From contig NC_047024.1 of the NCBI RefSeq assembly GCF_902652985.1, forward strand, positions 36,456,001-36,520,000: DNA of 64,000 nt, read 5' to 3'. The DNA comes from Pecten maximus. Lineage: Eukaryota. The first letter of the stretch is position 1. Each line of letters begins with the position of its first letter. The notes under the pieces were generated by a model. That model had not been told where the DNA came from, made no database searches, and saw only the letters and a program-made list of their open reading frames with translations. Shown piece by piece: positions 28,229 through 63,242 of the stretch. The position numbers and the translations under genes are program-made.

Positions 28229-28596
28229 TCTTTGGCAGATAGTGAAAAATGCAGGATTTAAAATTAAAAAATAATTTTTTGAAACTAAAATATGTGAAAA
28301 TAATGCTTCACATTAAATAATAACATCTTTATACATTCCAATAGGATAACTATACTTTAAAATTGTAAGATCTTTTCCTTGGTGACCCATTAAACATCAT
28401 TTCACCCTTTATTTTGGAGGAATTTGTCTAGATATTTGATCATTGAATGATGGAGGCACTATATTCTTACACTTTGTTGAAACATTAAGTGACTACTACT
28501 GTCACTCTGAGCTGTTAAATGTTTACAAAGTGCAGACGAACTTAACTGTGTAGTGTTGTATTACATCTAGCTGATTGTGTATTTCTTATGTTACAG

Positions 28597-29660
28597 GAGA
28601 GAGACCGTATATCTGTGGAGCCTGTGGGGTCCAGTACAGCCAGAGTCACAGTCTAAAGAGTCACATCATCAACAAACATGATGGAATCATGTCGTATTAC
28701 ATCAAGGAGAAGCGTAACCGTTCCCCACGAGGTATGGGCTACTTGACCCAGGTCATACCCGACATGTACAAGATCTCCCCACAGCAATCCATGATGCCAC
28801 ACAATGTTCACAGTAACCATGGAAACCAACAACAGTCACTCCTGATGCCACAACACAACATTCCAATGCCACCACATCCACATGTCATGACTTCAATGCA
28901 TCCACAAGTCATGACCTCGCCCAACCACCAAGGTCAAGGTCAGCCAATGACTTCTCCCATGCAGAAGATGATGATGTCTCCACAACAGCAACAGCAACAG
29001 CAGCAGCAGCAACAACAACAACAGCAACAACAAATGGGAAGCCACCTCCAACAGGAGAATCGTCCCACCCACATAGGAGGGGAGCGTAATCAGCAGTCCC
29101 ATCCTCACAATATGCAGCAGAAATCTAGTCCCAACTACTATGCCAATGGGTTTCCATCACCTAACTTTCAGAACAACTTTCCACCACAGTTCAAGGTGCA
29201 CCAGCAAGTGGCACCGGTGGTGGAGGAACAGCCACTGCCACTGGTTACGAACACTACCACCAAGTCTCAGATGCCACTACAGGAAATTCGCAACAACCAG
29301 ATGGAGGAGAGCGGCATGAACAACCATGGTGCTATTGATCTCAGCAAGAAGGGCATGCCAAGTCACACTCTCCGTGACAATGGTCATCTTGAGGCTCTCA
29401 AGGCTCTGGAGATGTCAGGACTGGGGGAACGCCCAGAAAAAGATCATAAGTGCACAGAGAAGGGCACCGGAGAATGTGCTAATTGTGTTCATGAGTCTAA
29501 ACTCCGTACACTAAGACTAAATGTGGTCCGTATGCTCAGTATTCTGGTCCCAAATCTGAATTTCGAGGAGAAGGGAATCAGCGCTGATGGTGACTCGGTG
29601 GATGAACTCCTACATGATGTCATAGAAAGCAATATGCAGGAGGAGGAGATGAGTGAGTGA
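28597..29660 (+). CDS. C2H2 zinc-finger transcription factor, last coding exon (third finger, polyQ, C-terminal helical segment); spliced CDS 2760 nt, 919 aa
   Basis: Acceptor ttacag| at 28596; phase-1 join restores the TGERPY linker; finger CGACGVQYSQSHSLKSHIINKH; Q17 at 28983-29033; TGA at 29658-29660. Confidence 0.92.
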
Positions 29661-40430: not shown

Positions 40431-41354
40431 TAAGTCAGTTGCTTGGAATAAGTGCCATATTCATTTGATGAGAAAGAAAGGGGTTCAACTCAATAGCTTT
40501 AAAATTATTTTAAAGTTCTATAAAGATTCGGATTCCATTTTGATTCGTTTATCCAGTTTCATTATTTATTTTAAAAGGTTATAATGTAAGAGTTGTCCCC
40601 CTTCATGCTAAGTGTGCTCCAGATGGAGAAATTATAAGTTTTGAAAAACAAACACAAAAGCTTCCATTTTGAGAAATGAAAAGAATGCAAATTATTGTTT
40701 CAAAATATACCATGTTTATTATGTCTATTGTGCTCACTTAAATATCATTTTTGTAAACAAGTTTTTGTTGTCGCTTCTACCTCAGTTGCATGTGGTAGGT
40801 TTGTAGGCAGAGTTCAGATACACAGCCGAACCACTGCCTTACCTAAGTTCAATTATGTTCTCATTTTTATAGTATTGAACAGCATTTCCTTATTTTTACA
40901 ATATTATGAAACTTAAAGGTCGCTAACAAAACAAAAAGTGACTGGTTTGTACATGTCCACTACAAAAGATGTGACTCCTTTTAAGCCCAGCGAAGAGTTT
41001 TTGTCCCTGTAAACTGTAGTATTAGATATATTGTGTCTTTAGAGTGCTTACTGTGGTTTTGTATGTTATTGCGAAATGAATGCGCATGTCCATTGTTTTA
41101 GAAGTCTACTTATTGTAGCGTAGCAAACTAAAATAAAGCAATAATTAAGATATTTATCGTTATTGTGATATTTTCTCTCAATTTATGGTAAACCATAGCA
41201 TATGGACAGAACACTTGTAGTATTTCTGACTAGGCATATACAAGTGATCTTTATCTCCTTGGAGAATAAAGGTTTGACTAGACATTGGAGATTGATCTTT
41301 AATCCTAAGATAAGTAACATTTCTGACGGACTTAAATGATTGACATTGAAAACC

Positions 41355-41720
41355 AGGAGAGTGACATTTCTGACCATACAGACGAGATTGACCTTTAACC
41401 CTTGGAAAGTAATATTTCTGACCATACAGACGAGATTGACCTTTAACCCTATAGCTAGGAGAGTATAACATTTCTGATCATACGGACCGGATTGACCTTT
41501 AACCCAAGGAGAGTATAACATTTCTGACCATGCAGACGAGATTGACCTTTAACCCTAGGAGAGTATGACATTTCTGACCATACAGACGGGATTGACCTTT
41601 AACCCTAGGAGAGTAACATTTCTGATCATACGAACCGGATTGACCTTTAACCCTAGGAGAGAAGCATTTCTGACAATGCAGACGAAATTGACTTTTAACC
41701 CCAAAGGAGTAATAGTTCTG
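41355..41720. repeat. Diverged ~52-56-bp tandem repeat, ~7 copies
   Basis: Recurrent acatttctgaccatacagacgagattgacctttaaccc core; explains the overlapping short ORFs here. Confidence 0.85.
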
Positions 41721-42874
41721 AACACGCAGACGAGATGGGCCATGTCTATGTGTTGTCTTTAACTCTAAGGCTAACATGTACATGTACCTCATGATCGTTC
41801 CATTCCAAAAGGAAAGTATAGACCGAGGTGGTGTATCGTTGTTATCCTCTCGGTCTGCTGCCCCTCGTATTCCGAATAGAACACAGACGAATGACATATG
41901 AACAACATAAATATCAAAGTCCTTCCAGACTTTGTGAGATAATGATGTTTATAAAGAATATGAACAATTTAACAACCCATTTTGTAAGGCTGCTTGAAAA
42001 GGGCGTCCTGATGCTATATATACATTAATGCATAATAAAATGTGGCACGATTTGACGTTATCGTCTAAACATGACACGCGTTATATGAAGGTGTACCGAT
42101 AACAACTGTTAGCTTGATTCCGTCAACACATGGGGATCACTATATGTTCCGCTATGTCAGAAGATGTGTGTATTTTGTAAAAGTTACGAAAAACACGAAA
42201 AATGTATTTAAAAACTTAAAGGTCATTTCAAGGTCTCAATGTAACTCTGTGCCAGGTTTGGTTGGAATAAGCTTAACTTAGTGCAAGGTGTTCCGAACGG
42301 TATGCACCTTCTGCTTTGTTCACTATTTAACTTAGAGCAAAAACAGTCCGGTTTCTAGGCATCCTTAATCCGCAGGTGCTTTTTTGACGACACCCGCCAT
42401 GGAAATCTTAATCGAGTCACATTAGTCCTTACGGATGACAATGTCTTGTTATCATACTATACCCAGGATGGTGGAAACGGAACCACTACACGCAACACAC
42501 ATCTAACACGTCTTCTTGTTCTGGAAATAGAGCAGTTCGAAACTTTCCCCCATTGGTTCACATACATGCAGTGTGCATCTGTGGAAACCGTTTTTGGTTT
42601 TTTTTTTGTTTTTTTTTTGTTTTTTGTTGGTTTTTTGTCAGTATTCGAAATAGATCACGTCTAACTATATATCAAGTTGGTTAATTGAGCACAATGTTTA
42701 CGGTGACGAAAAAAACGCCATAGTCCTGTCTTTGCGACTTCTCGTCGAAGGAAATTGAATTAATGTAAACGACCCGACCATCTCGTGTCAGTTTTAGTGC
42801 TGAAATAATGACATTCGTGTATGATAACTGATGCAAACGGTGCCATTGCTTTGAGTCGCCATGATCAAAAACAG

Positions 42875-43885
42875 TTATGCAGATTTCACAAAACTTTTGA
42901 CGAATCCATTTACATACAGGTATCTTACAAACAGCAGAATGAACACTACAAAACAAGTTTTCTTGAAGAGTTGGATCCAGCCGTCGTAAAGCCCCTCCAT
43001 TTCCCCATCGCCTGACCTTCTCGTTTTCATCGGGAAATAGGTATGCTCTTTCACTGTCTCAATGGCGCGCTTTGCGCCCTTCCATGCGCCGGGACCATTG
43101 AGGCGCCACTGTGTAGGCGTAGCTGGACCGAAGTATATCTTGTACCACAGTTTTGGGTCAGAGAAGAAGTATTTCAATAAATCTGGTTTACATCCGATCA
43201 TTGAAGCCAGTCTGTCCATGTACTGGATTGAGTAAATCTGCAGGCTGTATCTTGGAGAGTCGATGAAGTTACGTGTGATGAAAGCCTTACGTTTCTCCAC
43301 GAGTTCGAGTCGTTGAGAGGCACTGGGTAGCTCACATTTCCCGCTAAATACTCTTGTTATACACCTGGCTTGCATTTCTAATATCGGTGGCAGCGCACCA
43401 AACGGTTGAACCAAGCCAACAACACCAAGTGTGCACGGGTTTAAATTTGTAGGAAACACAAGCTCGTACAAGTATGGAAAATGGCCGTCAACTTTGATTA
43501 TGTCATCGTCTAGAATTGGAAAGTCGAAATTGAACCCAGTTGCCAGGATGACGACATCAATGTTCTTCAGTTCTGTACCATCTTCAAATTTGGCGCCGTC
43601 GGTTGTGAACTCCTTCACGTTACACTTGATGTTGATGGTACCGAGTAAGATCCTGTTGGGAAGGTCGTCACTTATTGTCAGGGCACTTGCGTCAAAGCGT
43701 TTGTTCGGTGAGAGGCCATAGTTGGCATGGTTGTAGCGTCGGTTTAGGCGATGGAAGAACATTGGCCGCATAAGAGTCCATGGTAGTTTCATGGAAAACC
43801 GGTTGAGGGCGAGATGGTCAAAAGGAACGCCGTGGTCAGCTGCTCTCTGGATCACATAGGTCCCGCGCCGACTGGACATGTAAAC
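42875..43885 (-). CDS. FMO: Flavin-containing monooxygenase (dimethylaniline monooxygenase family), coding exon 2
   Basis: Acceptor cag| before 43885; VYMSSRRG, VILATGF (FATGY-type motif), EMQAR, FGPATPTQWRLNGPG; hydrophobic C-terminal membrane anchor; TAA stop. Confidence 0.95.
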   Translation of the reverse strand, partial: VYMSSRRGTYVIQRAADHGVPFDHLALNRFSMKLPWTLMRPMFFHRLNRRYNHANYGLSPNKRFDASALTISDDLPNRILLGTINIKCNVKEFTTDGAKFEDGTELKNIDVVILATGFNFDFPILDDDIIKVDGHFPYLYELVFPTNLNPCTLGVVGLVQPFGALPPILEMQARCITRVFSGKCELPSASQRLELVEKRKAFITRNFIDSPRYSLQIYSIQYMDRLASMIGCKPDLLKYFFSDPKLWYKIYFGPATPTQWRLNGPGAWKGAKRAIETVKEHTYFPMKTRRSGDGEMEGLYDGWIQLFKKTCFVVFILLFVRYLYVNGFVKSFVKSA

Positions 43886-44088
43886 CTGCATAGAAAGTCA
43901 ACAGCAGAAAATTAATGGAACACTGACAAGTCGATGAAAGTAACCATGGAGACACGAGAATCATAATCATACGCGTGATGATTTTATAGAAAATACTATT
44001 TCTGATTATAACTGATAAACTGAATTTGTAGTACTCCCTTTATTTATTTCTGCATTAATTATCACAAAGGGAACCAGTTCCTAAGTAT

Positions 44089-44923
44089 CAGTCTAAGGCC
44101 GGTAAAACCATATACAGAGCCAGTGTAAGGCCGGGATAACCATATACAGAGCCAGTCTGAGGCCGGGATAACCATATACAGGGCCAGTCTGAGGCCGGGA
44201 TAACCATATACAGAGCCAGTCTGAGACCGGGATAACCATATACAGGGCCAGTCTGAGACCGGGATAACCATATACAGAGCCAGTCTGAGACCGGTAAAAC
44301 CATATACAGAGCCAGTCTGAGACCGGGATAACCATATACAGGGCCAGTCTGAGACCGGTAAAACCATATACAGAGCCAGTCTGAGGCCGGGATAACCATA
44401 TACAGAGCCAGTCTGAGACCGGTATAACCATATACAGGGCCAGTCTGAGGCCGGGATAACCATATACAGAGCCAGTCTGAGACCGTTAAAACCATATACA
44501 GGGCCAGTCTGAGGCCGGGATAACCATATACAGAGCCAGTCTGAGACCGTTAAAACCATATACAGGGCCAGTCTGAGACCGGTAAAACCATATACAGAGC
44601 CAGTCTGAGGCCGGGATAACCATATACAGGGCCAGTCTGAGGCCGGGATAACCATATAAAGGGCCAGTCTGGGGCCGGGATAACCATATACAGGGCCAGT
44701 CTGAGGCCGGGATAACCATATACAGAGCCAGTCTGAGACCGGTAAAACCATATACAGAGCCAGTCTGAGACCGGTAAAACCATATACAGAGCCAGTCTGA
44801 GGCCTGTAAAACCATATACAGAGCCAGTCTGAGGCCGGTAAAACCATATACAGAGCCAGTCTGAGACCGGTAAAACCATATACAGAGCCAGTCTGAGGCC
44901 GGGATAACCATATACAGGGCCAG
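44089..44923. repeat. 32-bp minisatellite, ~26 copies, filling most of the FMO intron
   Basis: ccatatacag at 44108, 44140 and 44172; unit ccagtctgaggccgggataaccatatacagag. Confidence 0.97.
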
Positions 44924-44929
44924 ACTTAC

Positions 44930-45556
44930 GTGTTCGGCATGACGACTCAGTTCGCAGGCAACGTCCGATCCCGAATTACCAATCCCCACCACCAGGATTC
45001 TCTTCCCTTCGAACCCCCGGAAGTCCTTGTAGTCGTGGGTGTGCATGACCTTGCCCTTGAACTTGTCCAGTCCGGCCATTGTTGGCATGTGTGGTATATG
45101 AAGGTGTCCATTACACACAATAACATAATTCGTCCTCAATTTTCGCGACTTTCCCGATTCTAAATTCTTGACTACCGTTACCCAGCTTCCAGTCTTGTCG
45201 AAGTCGTCAGCTTTCTTAACGTTATCTACACTATGGCTGAAGTTGATATGCTTTCTCAAATTGAAGTTGTCTGCGTAAAGTTGGAGGTATTTTTTGAAGT
45301 GTTTGTGCCCCATAAAGTTTGGGAACTCCTTTGGGATTGGAAAGTCACTGTAACACGTCATCTCCTTACTGGTGTTGATACTACAGGAGTTGTATAGGCT
45401 TGGGTCGCCATCTTTTGACCACTTATGATAATTCCACAGTCCACCGACGTCCGTATCCTTCTCGAAGCATATTGGTTCCATTCCTTCGTCCAGACAGTGC
45501 TTGACCGCCGCCAATCCGGAAACTCCGGCCCCTACCACCAGCACAGTCTTAGTCAT
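44930..45556 (-). CDS. FMO: Flavin-containing monooxygenase, coding exon 1 (209 codons; full protein 545 aa)
   Basis: FAD motif GAGVSG, GGLWNY, FMO signature FKGKVMHTHDYK, NADPH motif GIGNSG; donor CAC|GTAAGT at 44929; acceptor ttctccctag| immediately before the ATG implies an upstream non-coding exon. Confidence 0.95.
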
Positions 45557-47785
45557 CTAGGGAGAACAAACCACGTGTGTTAAGTAATCTGGAAGGTTTA
45601 CCTAATGTTTAAGTTATGTCAAGCATAGCCAAGCTTACAGACACTCACATTTTATATGAGATTTAGGAAACGAGCCTACGATCTTTTTGTCATCTCCTAG
45701 CAACCATCTTACGAACTAAAAATTAAAAAAATTAACGATGACTTTCCTCAATCCCTCGTGAAATGGAAACGACGGAAACAAATATAAGATTCTGTTGATG
45801 ATGTAGCGATTTGTTGCTAAATTAAAATGTTTGTCCACAGAGCTGCGTCTTTATATCAACTTTAAACGCCAGATCTATATCATAATATTTATACTGGTTC
45901 ATATTGATGTAAGTTTCATGTAAGATAATATATTTCATTACCGTCAGCGTGTTTGGTTAAAATAAACAACCACTTTTGAAACACCGCTAAAGTGCTCGAG
46001 GTTATGATCATAACTCGCAATGGTCAAACAGCCAATAACATTTACGGTTTAATGAATGTCATTTCTACTTATATATAGTATATATATAATATTATTGAAG
46101 ACCTTACACAACTCAGAGAAGAACTTTGCTTGTAAAAGTAAATTAGTGACACTTAGATTCGCATTGTTTGGTTGCAGTAAGAAAATAATTATTTTCAATT
46201 TGCCATTTATATAGTGTGATTTGTTTCGGATATTCTTCAGAAACCAAGCGAGTAAAAGGATAAAATCAATGGAACACCTCTTTTATAATCTCCAAATGAA
46301 TAAAACACAATGATAGCATCCCGAAATCTACACAAGGCTGAACATTGACAATGGAGTCCAAATATTTTTCGAAAAAAAAACTATGTTATGCTTCCAAATG
46401 AATAGAAAATTAAAAGCATACCTTGAAAGCCCTTTAAGACGGCCAGGATCCAGATGATTACATACAGTATATACCTGTGGCTGTAACACCTGGTCACACC
46501 TGTATAGAGCTTTATCTGTTCACCTATATACACGGGATAAAGGTGATAGCATGGTTATGTAATAGTTTTGTGACTTACAATAAATTGGAGGATAGTGTGT
46601 TAATATACCGTCTAAATACCAATACAAAGTTCACGACCTAGACAAAAGGCCGTACTGTAAATACTATTGATGCTGTAGACTGACTATGTTCCTGTTAAGT
46701 TATAGACAGATATAACCGGCATACTCCCCAACAACCTGGTACGAAAAGGAATAGAAAGCAGAACTTTGGTCGACGTCCCCACGGGTGTGTCGTTGAAGGC
46801 TGGGAAGAGGCTGTTGCATTGAGCCTGGCGGGAGTTGTCACGTTGGCGCCACCACAACTGCGATAACGCGTTATGGCCGAAATCAGCCACCATAGGTTCA
46901 GTACGCAGTGTTGTGATAATTGTTGTCCACTGATATAGATATCAATGTCCAATCCATGTGTTTCGTAAGTGTCCGGATATAAAACAAGGGGTCAAGGTGG
47001 TGACTTTAGTTGGTCAATTGTTTTGAAGATGAGAAAGTAGGTTAATTAAGCATCCACAAACGTACAGCTTTACACTTACAGACAAGTCTTTATAGTCTTT
47101 AATAACATATTCATACTCACGGGACTATTCCTTATCATTGGTGTTACAGTTTACGTTCCGGATGATTTGTATGTGCATTGTGTTAAGTAACTAATATTGA
47201 GTACGGTCAGTGCATGTCTTTTACATTGATTTCAATACGTTTCCCCAGTATTACATAGTAATTAATATTACTTTATCACGTTGCGAAATCGAAAGATATG
47301 GTCGGTGTTGAGGTTTCACAATTCACAGAGCAAAACTGTCAAGATTGAAATTTCGATCAAACAGAAAAAACAGAGCCCAAGATATGATTTGTATCTTGTT
47401 AATATATCATCGAATTGGGACAACTTCTCAACACTGTTTACTTAAGAACTTAGCAAACGTGGTCTGATGGTTAAAACAACGAATGAAGGTCGTTCATGGA
47501 TATTCATATCTAACCAATATCAGTAAAACCCTTGACCTCATCTTGTTTCATTTGGAAGCAAAAGCATTGACGGTTTATACCGTCCTATAATAACATACAG
47601 GGCAGCTAACACTATCTTACCAGACCAGAAGTTTGTTTTAATCCCAATAATCATGATATATAGATCTCAGTTAGATGTCTACCTGGCTGGAAAATAAAAG
47701 CTCTTTTGTACAACACAGTAAAATCAATAGAGGGCATCACCAGAGTGTATTTATTAGGGTATTCGTAGTTAAAAGAAACATTTGT

Positions 47786-48988
47786 TCAAATATCGCGTTG
47801 AATGATATAATATTGAAATATCCCGGTTCTGTCGGTGGAGACACCTACCGACTGAATTAAACTAAAGTTCGACAACCTCCTGAAATTGGACGAGGATAGC
47901 AGAACAGGCGTATGACCAAAAACGATTATGAATCCTTTCTCTCGGACTGTAGGCAGTATCGCGGTCAAAAGAACCTCCGCGTCAGCGGAAGTGACGACTT
48001 CTGAGTTCAGAAAGCGGATGAAGCAAGCATCAGCAGTTCCGGTAAGTATTTTAGGAAACAAGGCGTTTTCACAGTACACTTCATCGACCCGTTCTCTGGA
48101 AAAGTCGGCCATTTGTTGACTTAAATCCTGGCCTATTGTGTAACTTTCCGGAAATGCTTCCTTCAGTGTGGACAAAAACACCCCTGTGGAACAAGCTGGA
48201 TCATAGAACCTTCCAGCTGACATGTCTATAGTTTCCAGGAATTGAATAGTGTATTGTCGGAGACGCTCTTCTCCACAACTTAACATGGTATCGTACACGT
48301 TATCAACTGCCCACCCTTCCGCGGGGGAACAAAGCTCCTTCCTGTCGGGTTCTCTAAGGAGCGGGAATGGACAACGTATTTCTACGCTGGAAGAATCTCC
48401 TGCCATGATATCAGAAAAAAGCTTGAGTTTCTCGGAGTTCGTTAACGGGAAATAGGTGATTTGTACTTCATTCTCTGTGACGCGTTCATCACAAAACAGA
48501 CCTAGGACCATATCGGCAGTCACCAAGCTGCAATGGAGTTCAGGTATTTTCCCGGCGATCCAGTAATCGGACAGAATCTTCCTTCCAACTAATCTCCGAA
48601 TGCCAGATAGTCCACCGTATATTCCAACGTCAAGGAAAAATATACTTTGAGGAAAATCACAAAACTTTTCATTAATACGCCTCGTGTCTCTTTCCACGAC
48701 ATTTCCCCACAGAATAATCTTGACTGTAGTTGTACCCGGGGAGATCTTGTTGTCTTCGTACCTTTTGAGTTCGTTTAGGATGAGAGTCAGACATTTCCTG
48801 TCGAATGGTTGGGAGGAAGCCTTACTCAACGTTTCCTGTAGAATGGTCTTCCCGGAATCCCATTCCCCAGACGACAGGAGCTTCCTCGCCATGAGAAAGT
48901 CCTTCCTAATTTCCGGGTCGTGAACATCTTTGAATATACCATCGTAGCTTGTGATGGCGTCCGTTCGGAGATTTGAGTCGTCTGCCAT
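47786..48988 (-). CDS. Class I SAM-dependent transferase, Nat/isonocardicin-synthase-like (putative 3-amino-3-carboxypropyl transferase), intronless CDS, 400 aa
   Basis: SAM motif I YDPACSTG, GQDLSQQM, RFLNSEV, VFGHTPVLL, FQYY; AATAAA (47755-47750) ~30 nt after the stop. The SAM fold is well supported; the Nat assignment comes from recalled motifs, not a search. Confidence 0.8.
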   Translation of the reverse strand: MADDSNLRTDAITSYDGIFKDVHDPEIRKDFLMARKLLSSGEWDSGKTILQETLSKASSQPFDRKCLTLILNELKRYEDNKISPGTTTVKIILWGNVVERDTRRINEKFCDFPQSIFFLDVGIYGGLSGIRRLVGRKILSDYWIAGKIPELHCSLVTADMVLGLFCDERVTENEVQITYFPLTNSEKLKLFSDIMAGDSSSVEIRCPFPLLREPDRKELCSPAEGWAVDNVYDTMLSCGEERLRQYTIQFLETIDMSAGRFYDPACSTGVFLSTLKEAFPESYTIGQDLSQQMADFSRERVDEVYCENALFPKILTGTADACFIRFLNSEVVTSADAEVLLTAILPTVREKGFIIVFGHTPVLLSSSNFRRLSNFSLIQSVGVSTDRTGIFQYYIIQRDI

Positions 48989-49478: not shown

Positions 49479-49748
49479 AAGAGGGCGTGTGCTTTTATAA
49501 ACTGTGCCAAAGTGTTATGTAAAACAGATGGTTTCTACTACACAGAATCTTATGACTATTAGATATTCTCATGACAGATTAACTTCCACCAAAATGTTTT
49601 TTACATTAATAGCTATATCGCAACCTTCAAACAAAATGGTGAGTGATTTTGTTTATGATATGTATATTGATGTTGTCATCGTCCGAAAAAAAAACCATTT
49701 TACCTCTGACGGTCATTGAAGTTATCCAATCACCGAGTGCTGCGTAAA

Positions 49749-51140
49749 AAAACACGTGTACGATATTCCTCTCATTAGTCCGGACATACAAAACCACATG
49801 TACGACTCCTCTAATTAGTCCGGACTTACAAAACCACATGTACGATTCCTCTCATTAGTCCGGACTTACAAAACCACATGTACGATTCCTCTCATTAGTC
49901 CGGACTTACAAAACCACACGTACGATTCCTCGAATTAGTCCGGACATACAAAACCACATGTACGTTTCTTCTCATTAGTCTGGACTTACAAAATCACATG
50001 CATGATTCTTCTAATTAGTCCGGACTTACAAATCAACATGTACGTTTCTTCTCATTAGTCTGGACTTACAAAACCACACGTACGATTCCTGTAGTCAGTC
50101 CGGACTTACAAAACCACATGCACGATTCCTCTCATTAGTCCGGACTTACAAAACCACACGTACGATTCCTCGAATTAGTCCGGACATACAAAACCACATG
50201 TACGTTTCTTCTCATTAGTCTGGACTTACAAAATCACATGTATGATTCTTCTAATTAGTCCGGACTTACAAATCAACATGTACGTTTCTTCTCATTAGTC
50301 TGGACTTACAAAACCACACGTACGATTCCTGTAGTCAGTCCGGACTTACAAAACCACATGCACGATTCCTCTCATTAGTCCGGACTTACAAAACCACATG
50401 TACGATTCCTCTCATTAGTCCGGACTTACAAAACCACACGTACGATTCCTCGAATTAGTCCGGACATACAAAACCACATGTACGTTTCTTCTCATTAGTC
50501 TGGACTTACAAAATCACATGTATGATTCTTCTAATTAGTCCGGACTTACAAATCAACATGTACGTTTCTTCTCATTAGTCTGGACTTACAAAACCACACG
50601 TACGATTCCTGTAGTCAGTCCGGACTTACAAAACCACATGCACGATTCCTCTCATTAGTCCGGACTTACAAAACCACATGTACGATTCCTCTCATTAGTC
50701 CGGACTTACAAAACCACATGTACAATTCCTCTCATTAGTCCGGACTTACAAAACCACATGTACGATTCCTCTCATTAGTCTGGACTTACAAAATCAAACG
50801 TACGATTGCTCTCATTAGTCCGGACTTACAAGACCACATGTACGATTCCTCTCATTAGTCCGGACTTACAAAACCACCTGTACGATTCCTCTCATTAGTC
50901 CGGACTTACAAAACCACATGTACGATTCCTCTCATTAGTCCGGACTTACAAAACCACATGTACGATTCCTGTAGTCAGTCCGGACTTACAAAACCACATG
51001 TACGATTCCTCTCATTAGTCCGGGTATACAAAATCAAACGTACGATTCCTCTCATCAGTCCGGACTTACAAAACCACATGCACGATTCCTCTCATTAGTC
51101 CGGACTTACAAAAACACATGTACGATTCCTCTCTAGTTCG
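49749..51140. repeat. 40-bp minisatellite, ~35 copies, with higher-order structure
   Basis: Unit tacgattcctctcattagtccggacttacaaaaccacatg. Confidence 0.97.
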
Positions 51141-51844: not shown

Positions 51845-54800
51845 TTTTTTTTTTATTTAAACATATTTCATTTGTATCAATATATACAAGAGGATTGGGC
51901 ACAAGTTTTCAAACTTATATGAAGCCCTTTCCTAATTATCATGATTTTTTACAATTTTTATACAAGATGACATGACATTTGAAATATTAACAATTATATT
52001 TGGGGAGAAAGAGAGAGAGAGAGGGAGAGACTGAGAGAGAGAGAGAGAAACAGAGAGACAGAGAGACAGAGAGAGAGGTATTACGATTCGAATTTATTCA
52101 AATATTCAATTGATAAATTTAGTTTAATTATTTACTAAGCAAACAAACAAATCCGATTTCGATAGCAGAAGATTAAACTGTTCGCTGCACAAAAACACAC
52201 TGCTATTTCTAATGTTCGTTATATCCTGTTCCATGGTAAGCTTTCTCCGTTCGATCCATTGCCTTCTGGAAAAAATATTCGTTTCTCTTGCGCTATCGGA
52301 ATCGGAAGAGACTTTATAAATACATTTTTTTTAACTGTCAATATATATATGTATGTATAATATTTCACAATACTGATTAAGAAAAGAGAAAACGGGGAAT
52401 TAAAATCTTCTTGAGTCAAGAATGTATTTCTGAGTGATTTGGCTTATCATAAAATTATCTTCAATGGATAAATCATTGTTTCCATATAATAATAGTTGCA
52501 GGTCTAGTGGCATGAAATTGTTTAGATTTCGGAACAATTCGATTCTCTGTTCAAAGTAATTTTGACAAATAAAGAAGTAGTGGTATGCATCCTCAATAGG
52601 ATGTCCACACTGACAATGGCGATAATCAATAAGATGTGATTGGAAAAGGTCATTTTTTAGAATACTACATTTGTTTCTTAATCGCGCATGCAATATATTA
52701 GATTTTCTATTTCCAACTGAGTAATGGGTAGGTACTTGTGTTCTATTTGAGATCGATTTTTTAAATACTGAATATGAAATACTATGTCTAATCTCTAGAT
52801 CTGAAGTCTGAAATTCGGTAGAGAGTAATTATTTGCATCACGTAGGTTATAATGTGAGTTTTCAGATACCAAGGGAGGTAATAAAGTGGATAAGTAATTA
52901 GGAGTGAGTTGGTTAGTAATTTTATAGAATAGTTGTAGTTTTCTTCTAGAACGACGATTTACAAGAGGTTCTAATCCACTTTCAGAGTATAATGAGAGCC
53001 TGCTAGCAAAGGAAGGTGATCCGGTAATTATTCTTGCAATTTCTAAATTTAATTTTTCCAAATTATCTGCATCACTGAGAGAATATCCATCCCAAACCTC
53101 GCAACAATATTCAAATAAAGGCAGAATATATGACTTGTAAATTTTATACAGAGTTTGTCTATTTAAGATATATTTGAGCTTTCTGAGAATACTTACTTGT
53201 TTAGATACATTTTTGCATATGCTTTCAATGTGTCGAGACCATTTACAGTTTACATCTAATGTTACGCCTAGGTGTTTGTGGTGATCAACAAATTCTACAT
53301 CTATATTATTAAATCTAATGTCTATAACATGTTCATGTTCATTTTTTGAAATTAGTAAGGCTTCCGTTTTCAGAGGGTTAAATTTCACCAACCAGGTTTC
53401 TGCCCAATTTTGAATTTTTGCTAAGTCATTATTTATTTTAATTTCAATTTCAAATGGTGATCGACCAGAACATAATAAAGAGGTATCATCAGCAAATAAT
53501 TTTGAAAGACTATCGAGATTATCAGATATGTCGTTTATGTAAAGAATAAAAAGTAGTGGGCCCAATACAGATCCTTGTGGCACGCCAGCATTAGTAGTCC
53601 TAACGGAAGATTTACTGTTTCCTACAAAAAACATGCTGTTTCCTGTTACTTACATAATTTTTTAACCAAATTAGAAGTTTCCCATTAATTCCATAATTCG
53701 CTAACTTTACATACAGTCGCTTATGCCACACACGATCGAACGCTTTGGAGATATCACAAAATACTAGACAGGTTGGTTGATTTTTTTCCAAATTTTCACA
53801 TAAGGTATTGTAAATTTCTATCATTTGATGGACGGTAGAATGACCAGATTGGAAACGAGATTGGTATTTATAAATAAGTGAGTTTTCAAGCAAATAGTTA
53901 TTCAAATATTTAACTACTAAACGTTCAAAAACTTTACCGATAGTGCTTAGTAATGAAATAGGCCTATAATTAGAAGAAACGTGTTTATCCCCTTTTTTTG
54001 AATAATGGCATAACTATTGCTAATTTCCAGTGTTCCGGGAAAATACCAGTATCAAGAGAGTATCTAAATATTAATGATAATGGGTAGGCTATAGAAAATG
54101 CTGTATTTTTTAACATATTGTGGCTAATTCCGTCGTGACCTACAGCTTTGTAAAGAGATAAAGATTTAAGTATGTCGGCAATGTCGCTGAGTTGAAAATG
54201 TATGTCTGATATCGTAGCGTCAGTCCTTAGTTCGACCTCTGGCTCGTCAATGTCTGTATCGTCAATGGTAGAAATGGAAACAAAGTAATCATTAAGTATA
54301 TTGGCTTTATCGACGTCTGTCATTACAAGATTTCCGTTTGTATGTACAAGCGGTGGTATAATATTAGCAGTGTCAGAAGTTTTTATTAATCTCCGAACAA
54401 TTTTCCAAAAATTACGTGGATTTGAAGAAGAATAACGATCTAGAATACCATTTATATCCGCATAGAAAAGTTCTTAGTATGTTTTTTAAGATTGTTGACA
54501 TGGTTACGTTGTTTCCGAAAATTCGTCAAATTTTTTACAGAGCGATTTGATTTAAAAACTTTTAAAAGTCTGTCTCTTTTCCTAATTTCTCGGCGAAGGT
54601 CAGAATTAAACCAGGACTTGTCGTTAGGTCTAATTATAACAGTTTTAGTAGGTATGCACTCACTGGCTATGTCCAAATATTTATCAGTAAATTTTTTACA
54701 CATTTCGTCTGGGGAGTGCGTCATAGAGAACAAGTCAACCCAGTCCGTATCGTCTAGTTTGTTATTAAACAGTTCATAATTTGCTTCATTATAACATCTT

Positions 54801-55362
54801 ATAATTCGTTTATACGTCCTTGTAATATTAGTCCCTACTGTTAGTTCTATTGTCGTCGCTTTATGGTCAGACAGGTCATCGTCAATGTCGATTACTTCAG
54901 AAAAGTTATACGTGCACGTGTCCGAGATTAAGATGGGGTCTAGTAGGGTGGAACTCGTGCGCGTCGTGCGCGTAGGTTTGTCGATCGTGTTTGTCATGTT
55001 AAAAGAGTGGATGATATCGTAAACAGCGTGTGTGTTTTCTACAGTTAACATATCAACATTTATATCTACAACTAATATAATATGAGGAGTTTCCTGAATA
55101 GCAGTGTCAACAGAGTTACGTAAATGGTTCCAAAATGCATGTGCGATATTTGGAGGCCTATACAGAGTACACAGAAGATATTTTTTTGATGGAAATTGAA
55201 TCTCTGTCCAAATTACCTCGCCCACTTGAAATTCTAAGTCATCTCTACGCCGGGTGCACAAAATACTGGATGTACATGTATACACGACTATCCCCCCTCC
55301 CGGAGTTCCCCGGTCCTTACGGTATAATTTATAACCACCCAGGAGTATATCAGCGTCATTAA
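51845..55362 (-). mobile_element. CR1-group non-LTR retrotransposon (LINE), decayed; 3' part with most of the APE endonuclease, RT, C-terminal Cys/His motif, 3' UTR and A-tail
   Basis: Frameshifted ORFs: YRKDR..GGG..YRPP..DINVD..SDH (APE); DISKAFDRVWH, GVPQGSVLGPLLF, LFADD (RT); CQCG...HYFFIC; poly(A) at 51845-51854; (GA)n at ~52005-52077 in the UTR. Confidence 0.95.
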
Positions 55363-56098
55363 GGGTAATAGGTAGTGGTGTAACATTGAAAGTTTTAAAA
55401 AATGATAATTTGTTGCATGATTGTATAACATACACATTTTATATATTAAAACGATTGTTAATTGAAGCTGTACACAAATATTAAATGAAATAGTAAAAAA
55501 TATGGTGGGAAATTGAAAATACTTACTTTTTGTGTCTTGAATAGGATTGAAGCATACGAAATTGTAAAGTGTTGCAACTGTGAAAATAAAAAGTTGATAT
55601 TATATTTCAGAGGCTATTAAAACCATAAGGCTATATAAAATATTCAAATAACAAGAAACAATTATAAAACGGTATCAATTTAGGTAACCACATTGTTTCC
55701 AAGTAGCCATTTTTATTTTAATTGAAGGGAAATAACTCTTATGAACTACTTTTTTTAAAATAAGTATGGAGAGTCACGATTGATATAAATTGTCATTGAT
55801 ATAAAATATATTTTACAAGAAGACCAATTTAGCCATAACCTCTTGTGTTATCCTATTGCAAAATTTTTTGTTATACTTTTATTATATTTCTGGTATATTT
55901 CTTCACTATTGTAATACCATACTTAACCATTTCTTTAATACATGTACTATGTAATAATGTCCACATAATTGACAATACAATAGTTTAAAATTGAAACATA
56001 AACATCACAATTATCATGTATAAGGTGTGTTTTTTAAATATGTGTGTCAATTTTAAATCTTGCTTATATTTGTACCTTTACATTCATTGATTTATTAC

Positions 56099-56337
56099 TT
56101 ATAAATCAATGAATTTCACTGCTGAAGCCATGAAGTCACCATAAAGGTTGTCTACTTCATAAGCTTCCTCCTCCCCCTCGTATAACACCTCATACACTGC
56201 ATTCTTTGCGCCGTCTTTTCCTTTCAACACATCCGTCACGCTTCCAGTAACACCACTTTTTAGTGCCACTATCATCAACCACCCACTCATGTAAGATAGT
56301 TCGCCCTACGAACTTCACGTTGGTATTACGTCTTTGT
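56099..56337 (-). pseudogene. Putative terminal exon of the transposon gene encoding a Spin/Ssty (Spindlin)-like Tudor domain; one frameshift
   Basis: Acceptor tttttttattcag|; reads KFVGRTILHEWVVDDSGTKKW /+1/ TGSVTDVLKGKDGAKNAVYEVLYEGEEEAYEVDNLYGDFMASAVKFIDL*. Confidence 0.65.
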
Positions 56338-57744
56338 CTGAATAAAAAAAAAATTAAATGATAATTATGATAACTCTGTTAAAGGGCACATAAACATGCC
56401 ACATTCTGTTAAACAATATGTAAATGTGCAGTGTTGAAATACTTAAAAATACATAAATGTTTAATACGAAAACGTGTTGTACCTTGCACTGCTGTTGGAA
56501 GAGGAAGGACCAGGACTTGCTGGGGAATGCTTGTCACTTCTGTCGCATGTCTTCACCTTGGTATTACGTCTTTGTCTGAATAAAAAAATAATTACAATTA
56601 AAATTATGATAATTATGATAACTCAGGTAAAGGCCATATAAACATGCCACATTCTATTAAACAATATGTAAATGTGCAGTGTTGAAATACTTATAAATAC
56701 ATAAATGTTTAATACGAAACCTTGCACTGCTGTTGGAAGAGGAAGGACCAGGACTTGCTGGGGAATGCTTGTCACTTCTGTCGCATGTCTTCACCTTGGT
56801 ATTACGTCTTTGTCTGAATAAAAAAATAATTACAATTAAAATTATGATAATTATGATAACTCAGGTAAAGGCCATATAAACATGCCACATTCTATTAAAC
56901 AATATGTAAATGTGCAGTGTTGAAATACTTATAAATACATAAATGTTTAATACGAAACCTTGCACTGCTGTTGGAAGAGGAAGGACCAGGACTTGCTGGG
57001 GAATGCTTGTCACTTCTGTCGCATGTCTTCACCTTGGTATTACGTCTTTGTCTGAATAAAAAAATAATTACAATTAAAATTATGATAATTATGATAACTC
57101 AGGTAAAGGCCATATAAACATGCCACATTCTATTAAACAATATGTAAATGTGCAGTGTTGAAATACTTATAAATACATAAATGTTTAATACGAAACCTTG
57201 CACTGCTGTTGGAAGAGGAAGGACCAGGACTTGCTGGGGAATGCTTCTCACTTCTGTCGCATGTCTTCACCTTGGTATTACGTCTTTGTCTGAATAAAAA
57301 AATAATTAAAATTAAAATTATGATAATTATGATAACTCAGGTAATGGCTACATAAACATGGCACATTCTATTAAACAATATGTAAATGTGCAGTGTTCAA
57401 ATACTTATAAATACATAAATGTTTAATACGAAACCTTGCACTGCTGTTGGAAGAGGAAGGACCAGGACTTGCTGGGGAATGCTTGTCACTTCTGTCGCAT
57501 GTCTTCACCTTGGTATTACGTCTTTGTCTGAATAAAAAAATAATTACAATTAAAATTATGATAACTATGATAACTCAGGTAAAGGCCATATAAACATGCC
57601 ACATTCTATTAAACAATATGTAAATGTGCAGTGTTGAAATACTTATAAATACATAAATGTTTAATACGAAACCTTGCACTGCTGTTGGAAGAGGAAGGAC
57701 CAGGACTTGCTGGGGAATGCTTGTCACTTCTGTCGCATGTCTTT
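56322..57744. repeat. 238-bp tandem repeat (~6 units) inside the DNA transposon; each unit is a 93-nt exon-like part plus a 145-nt intron-like part
   Basis: Exon-like starts at 57527, 57289, 57051, 56813 and 56575 (period 238). Confidence 0.95.
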
Positions 57745-58284
57745 TTTTGTCTTGTTGGCCGTCTGGGTTTTCTTCCTTTGCTCTTGATAGTTTCTTTCTT
57801 TTCAAACTGTAAAAAAAGTCAATATATATTATATTATACTGAAAATTATCATCATAAATTTGTTGCAATCAATCTTGTTACATTTTCATGACAGACTTGC
57901 ATTGTATCAATTTAAAACAAAAATAAGTACACTTACCTTACCTATGAATTTCTACTCTTGTCTGAAATTCTTTTCTGTTCCCCATAATCATGAGAAATAT
58001 ATCCAATGCCAAATTATTTTGTTTTTCATTCATGAATATGAAAATGTGTAGCTTACCTTACCTCAATAAATGATACTGGTATATTATACAGGTTCCCTTG
58101 ACAAGTGGTTGTTGGTTACCATATTTATGAAACTTGATGAAATTAATTTACAAACTTTCAAAAGATGGACATTTAGCTAAGTGTTTTTTCTACTTTGTAA
58201 AGTAAGTAACAAGAGTTTCATAAATATGATAACAAACAGTTGATACAGTTTTCTATCGGTAGCTATAATGACTAATAAACCTAC

Positions 58285-61187
58285 CCATAGTCCAGGTTCT
58301 CTAATTCCTGTAGTAGTTTTATGCCTTGGAGATGCCAATTCTGGTAATATGGCTTTAAAGTAAAAACTTTTCAGTTTTGGCAGCATTGTATTGGTCCATA
58401 ATTGTTTGTCGACGTAAATCCTTTCCACGTGAAGTTGGTATGGATTTGTCGAGTGTACAACAAAATCTACCAAAGAGTAGTTTGCTATATTCATTTGTCC
58501 CTGTATCTGGTAGTAGTAGTTGTGGTTTTCTTTTAAGGTAAGTTTTGAATTCACAGTCTCTAAGCAAAATGACTTCATTTCCTTACTTGCTTCATTTAGA
58601 TTTATTGGCTTTTGATGAAGCAAGTTTTTGATCTCAATCAATCCAGTCTCACCATTTTTCTCTGTAACTTTTCCATCTGGACTGGTTGCTAAATATGGGT
58701 GTTCCTTACTGATTACTAACCCTACTGGTTCATGGGTTACAATTTTGTTATGGCTTGTTTTCATGTAATTCTTGTATTCCAATATGGTAATTCCTTCTTC
58801 TCGAATTCCGCGTCTGGTGTAACAATTACTAAATGGTTGCCCATGAACAAGCCTTTCCACAGCTTTAGTAACCGGTTTAGTGGGGTCTTTCTTCGTAATC
58901 AAACCGAAGTTGGACGATGTGATCCTTTTACTTCGTTCGGATTTCCAGACTTGTGATTCTGATTGCGATTTGGTTTCTTTCTCAATAAGAGCTATCTGTT
59001 GGACCGGCAAATCTACATGTTTCTGGAAATAATCCGTACACTTATTGTGAAGTTCTTTTTGCGTAATATCGGATACACATTCAAGGACATCTGGTCCATA
59101 ATCTCTTTTGGCCCTTTTTGATGACGATTGCTTGCCATTTTCTTTTTTATCTCTTTGCTTTATTTTCTGTTTTTTCTTTGGATCTTTTAGTTGAATTCAA
59201 AGCATTCTCCCTACTTTGGTACACTCTTTTGAAGTGGTTTCCTGGTTTGGAGGTTGTGCACTTTTCCCATACAATAGGAGACCACTGTGGACCGAAGTTT
59301 TTCCTTAAACACCCTCCAAAACATCTGGTATTCCATGATCCCATATTACATCTTTTGACGTATTTTCCACCATCAAACTTCGCTCGAATGGACATGAAGG
59401 ATTCCGCAAGGTTGGTACTGAAATTTCCTATCAGTTGACTACTCTTGGCAGCTATCCTGGCAAGCAGACGAGAAATGTCATGCAACATTAATTTGTCAAG
59501 GAATGATGAATAGGGCACGTCACCACGCGACTCTTCCTCTGCTTCCAAGGATGTAGTGTCATGCCATATATATGACAGCTCCTGCAAAATGTTGGTAGTT
59601 TCCAATACATCAGATGGTGATGAAGATGAATTTGAAGATGGAGATGGAGATAAAGGTGCAGCTGAAGTTGAAGGCGAATTTGAAGGCGCAGTTGAAGATG
59701 AAGGCGCGGTTGAAGTAGAAGACGTAGAAGTAAGACATGAAGTTGGATTTTTGGACTTACAAAAATCAGTACAATTTGAGTGATCCCCAAAGATATGGTG
59801 TACTGAATTAATAATGTCATGCTTCAATAGCTTCACTTTCTGATTGTGGCTCATTGTATTGTCATTTGACCTTAGTCTGATGGCACATCTGACTGAACTT
59901 GTAAGACGAACTCTCACACGTTTTGTCAGTTTGTCTTTCCCTTTGTATTGGGGGTTTTCATCAACCAGTTTTTTCAAGATTTGAACGCAGACATTTACAG
60001 ATATGATTAGCACATTCTAATTTAGTAATGTCTCTACCCCAAACCGGCACATTTTCTTGAAGTTTTTGAAAAACAGAACTATCACCATCTGCTATTACCT
60101 TGGTGTATCTGACCCCATGCAAGCTTTCAGCTTTCATAAAACCTTCCAGAATCATATCAGACTCCATGGCTTGTGAGGATTCAGTCCAATTTCTGAAACA
60201 CCGATGAGGTTTTGGAACGGTATTGGATGTGGATGCCATACTGCAAATAGAACAATGCTTGTTCCTAACACCTAAATACAACAGTTTACCGGTCTCTGCC
60301 CCAATTATAACGGCACAACCTCCCATAGCATTGTATGTGTGCTTATGTGTCCTTTTACTCCACCCGCCATCACATATGACAGTAATGCACGGTATCCCAT
60401 TGCTATAACGGCCCTTTTCCATCGCAATCCGCCTTTCTTCTGCTCCGGCCTCTAACAAGTCTTGGGTGGCCACATTCTGCCACATATCTCCAATTTCTTG
60501 CTCAAGTTTACTGAAAGTCTTCTGTGTCATTCCTGGACTATCAAGGGTACCCATCATCTCATTGAGCCTAGACAAACCTCCACCAGTTGCCATGTTGGCC
60601 CACACAGCTCTCATATTAATGTCATAATGGTGACTGGTTGGGGTGTGTAACACGGGGCTAGTTTTGAAATCAAATTTCTTTTTACATCCCTGACATTCCA
60701 CCAATATTTGGCTTGCAAGACCAAATGTAGCAATCTCTTTGACTAAACGAATGGGAGATACATCTTGGGATACTAATCTGCCAGCTTCTTGGCATAGAAC
60801 AGTGTGTTTTGTGATGTCAGCAATGTGAGTTTGCAACATTTGCAAATTGATGAGTCTATATCCTTCATTTGCAACATTAGAAACTCTGGTAAATTTGAAC
60901 TTCAAACTACTCTCACATGATGTCCGGGTTAATTTGTACAAGTCAGACTGACAGTTAGATGTAAACAACAGTGTTCTATTTCTGTGTGGTGTAACATTTT
61001 TGGCTATTTTGTATTTACGCAGAATTCTTTTTCTGAACACCTTCAATATGACTGATAAATTTGATTTGGTATTGACTTTCACTTTGTATGTTTGCTTTCG
61101 TAAACCATATAAAACCTTCCTTTGTGCACCCTTGGATCCTCCTGGAAGTCCAAATCTTTTCTTTTTTGATATTGACTTGTTAGCCAT
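58285..61187 (-). pseudogene. DDE transposase (Kolobok/'Mutator-like' type) fused to a YqaJ/lambda-exonuclease domain; disrupted by two frameshifts and a stop
   Basis: VICDGGWSKR, HCSIC..HRCFRNW, IADGDSS, KLECANH, TNLAES (DDE triad); DYGP linker; RITSSNFG, PYLATSPDG, LIEIK, YYYQIQGQM (YqaJ PD-(D/E)XK); ORFs 59961-61187, 59147-60013 and 58177-59010 lie in three frames; donor TGG|GTAGGT at 58284. Confidence 0.9.
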
Positions 61188-62044
61188 GGCTAATTACATA
61201 GTTGTAACACGCGTACGAAAAACATCTCCCACTACCTCTGTGTGCCTCCATATTTTTTTGTGACGTGTGTCATGCAAATAATTACAACAAAACGTGCATA
61301 AAAATATATTCTATACTCACCTATTTTCATATATAAACATTTAATTTGTTCCAGTGCCTGTGTATTCCAAAAACAATTATGATAAAAAAACATCTTACCT
61401 TCGTAGACGAAGTTCCCCGAATCGTGGAAACTAAGTAAGTTGTGTTCACACTCTTACAATATTTCACAAATTTAACCTATATATTGAAAGATCGGAAAAC
61501 CGGACGATTGTCTATCTGTTGATATGAAATTAAGCTAAAGGATAGCGTATAACAAATAAATGATCAACTTACAAACTCAATGAAAACTAGTTGAACTTCG
61601 AAGCAATGGCAACTACCGGGACCGAATGACTGCTATCCTGTACACAAAACGGATATTGTTACGCATAAAAAAAGGACTGAGCATACAGCAAAAAACATAA
61701 ATTTTCGTCAACCAAACTAAACATACTTATTGTATAACGATTCAAATTGTTGTAGACAAATAAAACGGATACAAATTTAATGCTTAAAATCATGTAAAAG
61801 ATTATTTTACCTACTTTCACTTTGAATATTCCTACGCCGTGTCGACCATCATCCTTGACAAGATTGTTTACATGGATGTCATCCGATATGTTATAAGTGT
61901 GTGTGTAATAAATTAAGCGCCGATGTAAAATTACACACACAGGCAAGTCTGCTTATGATCTGTTTTTACTATATACGGAGTGTTTAGGCTTCGATCGCTC
62001 TTATTTTTTTTATTGCTGATGCAAAATTCAACATGTCTCGTAAT

Positions 62045-62093
62045 CCGCCATTTTACAATTGCTCTTCAATCATGTACTATAAATGTACTTCCG
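62045..62093 (-). promoter_or_regulatory. YY1-like (AAAATGGCGG) and ETS-like (CGGAAGT) motifs; candidate transposase promoter
   Basis: ccgccatttt at 62045-62054 and acttccg at 62087-62093, ~0.9 kb upstream of the transposase ATG and within the element's 5' end. Confidence 0.3.
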
Positions 62094-62422
62094 TTTTTTC
62101 ACATGAAACATGTCACTCCTGTCTGTTTATTATAGCCTTCCAACTGCATCTGATTATATAGTTTGTAAATTTAATCAACATGATATACCAACTTTCAGTG
62201 CCTTACCTGTAAGGTGATTTTCCATTAATTATGTATTTCCTGATAATTTTTGGGACAAAAGATAAGAAAGAAACATATTTTAAAATTTTTAATTTGCCAT
62301 AGATGTCCTTATACAGCATATTTGAAAACACGGGGATACAAGTTCATGATATGTACTATTAGTTGAATTTTAATGACTAAATAAATGACACTCAGTTGCC
62401 ATTTTGAGAGTACATGATACCT

Positions 62423-62650
62423 TTAATAGAAATATCAAGGTGAGTCTCGGAAACACAGACAATATCATAGTCGGACGATACATTTTCTAGTTGTGATAGC
62501 TTATTTCTAAGACTACGGATGTTTAAATGAAAGACAGATATAGAATTACTTTGATCTACAGGGCCTGGGTTTGGGTGTACGTCGTTACATGATAGTAGGA
62601 GAAGTTGTAATATTAGTAGGAAAGAAGAGTTATTGGTTACGCTAGATTAA
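62423..62650 (-). mobile_element. 5' part of the same CR1-group LINE: 2A-like leader and N-terminus of the APE endonuclease (not in the ORF track); true 5' end not determined
   Basis: Manual translation LLILQLLLLSCNDVHPNPGPVDQSNSISVFHLNIRSLRNKLSQLENVSSDYDIVCVSETHLDISI. Confidence 0.9.
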
Positions 62651-63242
62651 ACAACATGGATAGAATGAAATAAATAAGTTAGTGATAAGTTTACTAATGA
62701 CCTGCAACTATTTACAACATCAAATAATTTTAAATGAGAAATAAACTTTCGTGAAAACAAAAAAACAGTGAGTTCTTTGATAGAAGCAACCGATAGCCGC
62801 CCGGTACTGTGCTAAGTCATTACCCATGGTCATCAAATATTACATAGAAAGTTGGGAGGCAGTCGGCAACATCTATCAAAATTAGCATACATGTATAAAA
62901 AGGCAGCCAAAACACTCAGATACATTTACAAGAGACATATAGAAGTAAGTAAAGGAAAGGAGAGAAGAGAGGAGAAATAAGGGATATATTAAATACATAT
63001 TGAAAATAACTCAGAAAAGGGTGTGATAATTCAGATTGACAGCAAATATGAAAAGACTTTAAACAAGAAATATCTTTAAAAAGATAAACGGCATAGTTTT
63101 AATGCTGGTGGTTATAATGCAAAACTACTGGTGAAATAAATTAACGAACTACGATGTAATTAATAAATGCGCAGTTTCAGCACGGATAACAAAATTATAT
63201 CAGTTTGAATCATTTTTGGTGATAATAAGACTGCAAATGTGT

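What the first reader, a model, noticed from the sequence alone, without database searches (positions are those of the whole stretch)
42875..48988. Co-oriented FMO + Nat-like transferase: candidate two-gene animal biosynthetic cluster
Seen: two small-molecule-modifying enzymes lie head-to-tail on the same strand, 2.2 kb apart, both intron-poor, between a transcription-factor gene and a transposon nest. Known: FMOs N-/S-oxygenate amines; the nocardicin pathway pairs ACP transfer (Nat) with amine-to-oxime oxidation (there by the P450 NocL); siderophore and metallophore pathways also use ACP transfer or N-hydroxylation. Inference: the pair may make or modify one metabolite (defence compound, metal chelator, pigment or osmolyte). 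Adjacency alone may be chance.
Basis: inference. Interest (0 to 1): 0.7.

Follow-up and report, generated by a model that had tools for sequence, protein, structure and literature searches.

The report
Scallop duplicate of bursatellin tailoring genes
These two neighbouring scallop genes are an old second copy of two enzymes from a recently described shellfish pathway; they likely finish a nitrile-bearing small molecule whose first step would be carried out by genes on another chromosome-sized sequence of the same genome.

Summary
A single-exon isonocardicin-synthase-like transferase (47786-48988, minus) lies 2,230 bp upstream of an intact 545-aa FMO (42875-45556, minus). The pair belongs to a published pathway: the two genes are act and fmo of the mollusc bursatellin/oxazinin (bur-ox) cluster (PMC11869996), whose mussel ACT adds +101 Da to N-formyl-tyrosinol. 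The full cluster (Fmt-A-T-R NRPS, P450, ACT, FMO) lies on another contig of this genome, C3. No NRPS or P450 homologue lies in 224 kb around the window. Gene trees show the window pair is a scallop-wide duplicate of act+fmo, kept under purifying selection (dN/dS about 0.1). The C3 act has two frame breaks in this assembly (untested by reads), so the window act may be the working copy. Linkage recurs in 6 of 10 named molluscs. Transcripts were seen for both genes; co-expression is not shown. Likely mechanism: ACT makes the homoserine ether and the FMO turns its amino-acid end into an aldoxime or nitrile. The FMO step is untested anywhere. The scan's earlier notes held nothing on this. Verdict: a satellite variant of a known animal pathway, of modest interest.

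The parts
47786..48988 (-). act: SAM-dependent aminocarboxypropyltransferase, isonocardicin-synthase-like, 400 aa, single coding exon
   Evidence: ORF; PDB hit; fold; 53-54% identical to Mytilus cluster ACTs; contigs in 3 of 4 runs laid
44930..45556 (-). fmo coding exon 1 (209 codons; FAD motif GAGVSG, FMO motif FKGKVMHTHDY, NADPH motif GIGNSG)
   Evidence: Pfam PF00743 E 2e-78; motifs
43886..44929 (-). fmo coding intron (GT-AG, 1,044 nt), largely a 32-bp tandem array at 44089-44923 (26 copies)
42875..43885 (-). fmo coding exon 2, ending in a hydrophobic C-terminal segment (likely membrane anchor)
   Evidence: Pfam PF00743 E 1e-87; hydropathy peak at residue 520
45557..46421 (-). fmo 5'UTR intron (865 nt, GT-AG); the acceptor AG lies directly before the ATG
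   Evidence: spliced joint 45556-46422 in run X1; intron ends
46422..46466 (-). fmo non-coding first exon (at least about 45 nt; upstream end not determined)
   Evidence: shorter side of the joint in run X1

Best explanation
The pair is an old scallop duplicate of the act and fmo genes of the bursatellin/oxazinin (bur-ox) pathway, lying apart from the main cluster, and it likely carries out two late steps on a tyrosinol that the NRPS on contig C3 would supply. Step 1 (shown for the oyster T-R construct, inferred here): the C3 Fmt-A-T-R NRPS makes N-formyl-tyrosinol. Step 2 (shown for mussel ACT, inferred here): the window ACT moves the 3-amino-3-carboxypropyl group of SAM onto the phenol oxygen (+101 Da). 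Step 3 (untested for any bur-ox FMO): the membrane-anchored FMO N-hydroxylates the new alpha-amino group twice with loss of CO2, giving an aldoxime that ends as the nitrile of bursatellin/oxazinin. The C3 P450 would add the beta-hydroxyl and perhaps dehydrate the oxime. Because the C3 act is frame-broken in this assembly, the window act may be the only intact close ACT.
For: PMC11869996 names act, fmos, p450 and nrps as the cluster, shows ACT activity, predicts FMOs install the nitrile and lists scallops as carriers. The window ACT is 53-54% identical to Mytilus ACTs whose accessions run on with NRPS and FMO accessions; the FMO is 62% identical to a M. californianus cluster FMO. In the tree the window FMO groups with the Mytilus cluster FMOs (local support 0.92), apart from the C2 FMO array. 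The full cluster is on C3: NRPS 5622937-5627934 with Fmt, A, T and R domains, P450 exons, ACT, FMO. One NRPS and one such P450 were found genome-wide; neither in 224 kb around the window. ACT and FMO trees agree on two scallop clades: window type (Argopecten 44-Mb record, Mizuhopecten 676-kb scaffold, Ylistrum ACT) and cluster type. dN/dS window vs C3 is 0.09 (FMO) and 0.13 (ACT), dS 1.2-1.4. The window ACT keeps 84 of 85 columns conserved among 53 close homologues. An animal clade-I FMO that makes an aldoxime from an amino acid is known (millipede ChuaMOxS, PMC12671775, passages).
Against: No activity was measured for either scallop protein, and the FMO step is a prediction even in the source paper. 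The main text reports oxazinins from mussels and Manila clams and does not report testing scallops. Co-expression is not shown: ACT contigs appeared in 3 of 4 runs laid, FMO exon 1 in 2 of 4 (one a single 178-nt contig at depth 2), and run X5 had ACT only. The proteins are 22-24% diverged from the C3 copies, so substrate preference may have shifted. Linkage is not universal: in Haliotis asinina the two genes seen lie on different records, and no FMO was seen from the Ylistrum scaffold that holds the window-type ACT. The C3 frame breaks may be assembly errors.
Confidence: 0.75

Rival explanations
1. The duplicate pair has taken on a new job: it modifies a different phenol (for example tyramine-, octopamine- or dopamine-type or dietary phenols) independently of the NRPS, giving a scallop-specific metabolite.
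For: It has stayed apart from the NRPS and P450, alongside the cluster copy, since before Argopecten, Mizuhopecten and this species diverged. Mussel ACT accepts several N-acyl tyrosinols. Mizuhopecten keeps three full-length close ACTs.
Against: Nearly all family-conserved residues are kept (84 of 85), branches are not lengthened, and the C3 act appears broken, which would leave the window copy needed for the standard pathway.
Confidence: 0.13
2. The ACT works in bur-ox, but the FMO does another step (for example beta-oxidation or indole oxidation for oxazinin assembly) or is a general amine/sulfur oxidase carried along by the duplication; the P450 makes the nitrile.
For: The paper leaves FMO and P450 roles open. 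In millipedes P450s dehydrate aldoximes to nitriles, and most animal FMOs are broad xenobiotic enzymes. Run X5 held ACT without FMO.
Against: The FMO, not the P450, was duplicated and kept with the ACT, which fits an enzyme acting on the ACT product. It belongs to a distinct clade linked to act across bivalves.
Confidence: 0.1
3. Chance adjacency of two unrelated enzymes.
For: FMOs are a multigene family here (36 matches); linkage was not seen in Haliotis asinina.
Against: The same order and orientation recur at C3; IDs are consecutive or nearly so in 6 of 10 named species; the two gene trees agree; the cluster is published.
Confidence: 0.02

Closest known systems
bur-ox (bursatellin/oxazinin) cluster of molluscs, Venugopalan and Schmidt 2025, PMC11869996
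   Same: Orthologous act (53-54% to Mytilus) next to an fmo of the same clade (62% to M. californianus); the complete nrps-p450-act-fmo cluster is in this genome on C3.
   Different: This locus has only act+fmo, with no NRPS or P450 within 224 kb; it is a second, scallop-specific copy. The main text does not describe such a duplicate; Figure 3 and Table S2 could not be seen and may show it.
Isonocardicin synthase Nat of the nocardicin pathway (PDB 8ZHU/8ZHV)
   Same: Same fold (target TM-score 0.89, 34% identity over about 305 columns) and the same chemistry, ACP transfer from SAM to a phenol.
   Different: The mollusc protein has about 100 extra N-terminal residues with a three-helix segment. 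The acceptor is a tyrosinol, not a beta-lactam. In nocardicin the oxime is made by a P450 on a different amine (recalled, not tested).
Aldoxime-forming FMOs (millipede ChuaMOxS, fern FOS1, Streptomyces SCO7468; PMC12671775)
   Same: Group B FMO motifs and a C-terminal hydrophobic anchor; precedent for amino acid to aldoxime.
   Different: No orthology was tested; the substrate here would be an O-aryl homoserine, not a free aromatic amino acid.

Membership tests
bur-ox cluster (complete locus) | Isonocardicin-synthase-like act gene | tested here: met
bur-ox cluster (complete locus) | Linked fmo of the cluster clade | tested here: met
   groups with Mytilus cluster FMOs, apart from the C2 FMO array
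bur-ox cluster (complete locus) | Fmt-A-T-R NRPS at the locus | tested here: not met
   none in 224 kb; single copy found at C3. The locus is therefore filed as a satellite, not as the cluster
bur-ox cluster (complete locus) | P450 next to act | tested here: not met
   no tblastn hit of five C3 P450 exon frames in 224 kb; one copy, at C3
bur-ox cluster (complete locus) | Bursatellin/oxazinin-type metabolites in the animal | not testable with these tools
   needs LC-MS of scallop tissue
Nat-type aminocarboxypropyltransferases | Nat fold with SAM-binding motif (DPACSTG, GQDLS) and family-invariant residues | tested here: met
   84 of 85 conserved columns kept
Nat-type aminocarboxypropyltransferases | Catalytic residues of Nat defined by structure or mutagenesis | not tested
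   no paper on the Nat structure was found in the library
Nat-type aminocarboxypropyltransferases | ACP rather than methyl transfer to a phenol | not testable with these tools
   shown for the mussel orthologue only
Group B flavin-containing monooxygenases | GxGxxG (FAD), FxGxxxHxxxY, GxGxxG (NADPH), ATGF | tested here: met
   positions 9, 166, 191, 324; PF00743 above cut-off
Aldoxime/nitrile-forming FMOs | Double N-hydroxylation and decarboxylation of an alpha-amino acid | not testable with these tools
   prediction in PMC11869996; precedent in PMC12671775

The most novel reading that the evidence does not exclude
Scallops have split an animal biosynthetic cluster over two chromosomes. An act-fmo module was duplicated out of bur-ox in the scallop ancestor and, in this lineage, has replaced the decayed act of the parent cluster. 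The module stays together because the FMO is the missing nitrile-forming enzyme acting on the ACT product, so this two-gene unit points to a two-enzyme tyrosine cyanoethylation system.
Probability: 0.35. Interest if true: 0.55.

Novelty: new variant of a known kind. Interest (0 to 1): 0.33.

Why it matters
The pathway is already published, so this is not a new cluster. What it adds is evolutionary evidence on an open step: act was duplicated and kept with fmo, without the P450 or NRPS, which points to the FMO as the enzyme acting on the ACT product and supplies a second intact ACT/FMO pair to assay. It is also a clear case of how an animal biosynthetic cluster duplicates and disperses. The role of these compounds in edible bivalves is still unknown.

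Tried and rejected
Pfam and NCBIfam gave the transferase only weak methyltransferase hits below cut-off; 'ordinary methyltransferase' was rejected on the PDB sequence and fold matches. Self-standing two-gene cluster: rejected once the NRPS cluster was found on C3. Recent transposon-carried or segmental copy: not supported; similarity between the window region and the C3 cluster is confined to the three coding blocks (74-82% DNA identity) plus scattered short matches that look like dispersed repeats, and dS exceeds 1. Haplotig artefact: rejected for the same reason and because orthologues of both copies exist in other scallops. Single read-through transcript: no contig bridges the two genes in 4 runs, which proves nothing either way. 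Run X11 and the 14 runs with near-zero word share are no evidence of absence. Whether the C3 act breaks are real remains untested by reads. No cluster-type ACT was seen for Argopecten or Ylistrum, but the window ACT itself is not in that collection, so this absence is weak. Literature searches found no other paper on these genes in scallops; one search found none on the Nat structure. Earlier scan notes: nothing near, nothing by words, one unrelated hit by sequence. No complex prediction was run, since sequential enzymes need not bind.

Full report
Observation. The window is G000:C10:36456001-36520000. Proteins identical to its FMO and to the C3 NRPS are labelled Pecten maximus in the protein collection. 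On the minus strand a 400-aa single-exon ORF (47786-48988) precedes, by 2,230 bp, a 545-aa FMO with coding exons 44930-45556 and 42875-43885. The coding intron is mostly a 32-bp tandem array. A spliced contig adds an 865-nt 5'UTR intron. The FMO has all group B motifs and a hydrophobic C-terminus. The transferase has only sub-threshold Pfam and NCBIfam hits. It matches isonocardicin synthase by sequence (E 9e-39) and by fold (pLDDT 92.7; E 4e-29, next-best fold 2e-8).

What is in print. PMC11869996 was read as parts 1-4 of 5 of the text; figures were not seen and the supplement was unreadable. It describes the mollusc bur-ox cluster: Fmt-A-T-R NRPS, act, p450 and fmos. It shows that an oyster T-R construct reduces N-formyl-tyrosyl thioesters to tyrosinols and that mussel ACT adds +101 Da to the phenol. 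It predicts, without testing, that the P450 and FMOs install the hydroxyl and the nitrile. It states that partial or full machinery occurs in scallop genomes and argues the products are not toxins. PMC12833800 (passages) rediscovers the cluster computationally. PMC12671775 (passages) gives an animal FMO that makes an aldoxime from phenylalanine. Other papers were seen only as search listings.

Own genome. The ACT query found three loci: the window, C3:5.654 Mb (75%, in two frames) and C2:36.81 Mb (39%, open frame). The FMO query gave 36 matches; only C3:5.666 Mb is close (75%, next best scores 41-43%). C3 holds the whole cluster: a 1,666-codon NRPS frame with Formyl_trans_N, AMP-binding, PP-binding and NAD_binding_4 domains, a multi-exon P450 (3 of 4 exon frames scanned hit PF00067), then ACT and, 9,974 bp on, an intact 545-aa FMO in the same order and orientation as in the window. 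One NRPS and one such P450 were found genome-wide; these searches score only the best candidates. Neither has a tblastn hit in 224 kb around the window. The C3 act shows two single-base frame shifts within its first 80 codons, while its main frame keeps 83 of 85 conserved columns. It is either a recent pseudogene or an assembly error; this is untested.

Other species. Linkage was judged from accession order and record length, not from DNA. Both an ACT and a cluster-clade FMO were seen under a name in 10 species. In 6 of 10 they have consecutive or near-consecutive IDs on one record: Mizuhopecten yessoensis (twice: OWF42937/42939 and OWF55694/55693), Ruditapes philippinarum, Potamilus streckersoni, Mytilus coruscus, M. 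edulis and M. galloprovincialis. In 2 of 10 they only share a chromosome-sized record (Argopecten irradians, Pinctada imbricata). In 2 of 10 they lie on different records (Haliotis asinina, Ylistrum balloti). Species in which only one of the two was seen were left out. In Mytilus the NRPS accessions run on with those of act and fmo. In Argopecten the NRPS shares the 71-Mb record with the cluster-type FMO, and the window-type pair is on the 44-Mb record.

Age and selection. FastTree trees were built for 119 ACT rows (unnamed hits under 290 aa dropped) and 66 FMO rows (under 260 aa dropped). Both split scallop sequences into a window-type and a cluster-type clade, with local support 0.93 and 0.86 for ACT and 1.0 and 0.997 for FMO. 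The duplication therefore predates the split of Argopecten, Mizuhopecten and this species. Window versus C3 dN/dS is 0.09 (FMO, 545 codons) and 0.13 (ACT, 325 codons); dS of 1.2-1.4 is near saturation, so these are rough. Outside molluscs and rotifers the named relatives are bacterial, in line with the paper's suggestion of old horizontal transfer; I did not test a donor.

Expression. Ten of 24 listed runs hold part of the stretch. Four were laid, three of them chosen because they hold it. ACT contigs occurred in X1, X5 and X9 (three studies). FMO exon 1 occurred in X1 (spliced) and weakly in X9. X11 had nothing. Contigs show presence only, so co-expression is open.

Mechanism and verdict. The genes are members of the bur-ox ACT and FMO families, but the locus fails two defining features of the complete cluster, so it is filed as a satellite. 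Most likely (0.75) it works in trans with the C3 NRPS: ACT makes the O-homoserine ether of N-formyl-tyrosinol, and the FMO oxidatively decarboxylates it toward the nitrile. Shown here: gene structure, homology, duplication, selection and transcription. Inferred: substrate, FMO chemistry and product. Rivals are a new substrate for the duplicate (0.13), a different FMO role (0.10) and chance (0.02). The pathway is known; the split arrangement is a modest new variant that the unseen supplement may already list. Interest 0.33.

Noticed in passing
G000:C3:5622937-5667207 (L058, L034, L002, L060): Complete bur-ox cluster: NRPS and P450 on the minus strand, ACT and FMO on the plus strand; the NRPS is one uninterrupted 1,666-codon frame.
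   Followed up: yes
G000:C3:5653923-5655122 (L002): The cluster's act has two single-base frame shifts near its start in this assembly; pseudogene or assembly error.
   Followed up: partly
G000:C2:36811816-36813060 (L003): A third, divergent ACT-like gene (39%, open frame, family-invariant residues largely kept) that groups with Patella, Pomacea and Batillaria proteins, with no FMO, P450 or NRPS in 22 kb; a separate old ACT lineage of unknown substrate.
   Followed up: partly
ACT residues about 20-100 (window about 48690-48930): Animal ACTs carry an N-terminal extension with a confidently predicted three-helix segment that Nat lacks.
   Followed up: no
proteins P0059, P0064, P0068, P0074: A separate ACT clade that includes the bdelloid rotifer Rotaria socialis, plus Cardinium endosymbiont homologues elsewhere in the tree; possibly independent transfers.
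   Followed up: no
window 23982-29660 (+): C2H2 zinc-finger gene with two large exons and a polyglutamine tract.
   Followed up: partly
window 52400-64000: Broken LINE-type reverse-transcriptase ORFs around a Mutator-like transposase and a YqaJ-type nuclease ORF.
   Followed up: partly
window 8900-9700, 16200-20500, 41288-41736, 49748-51133: Several tandem arrays that give long spurious open frames.
   Followed up: no
window 47111-48649: One contig joint in run X1 with non-canonical ends and only 21 letters on one side; probably a repeat artefact.
   Followed up: no
G000:C10:36610000-36616000 (L027): Long low-complexity G/C and A/T runs that look like poorly resolved assembly.
   Followed up: no
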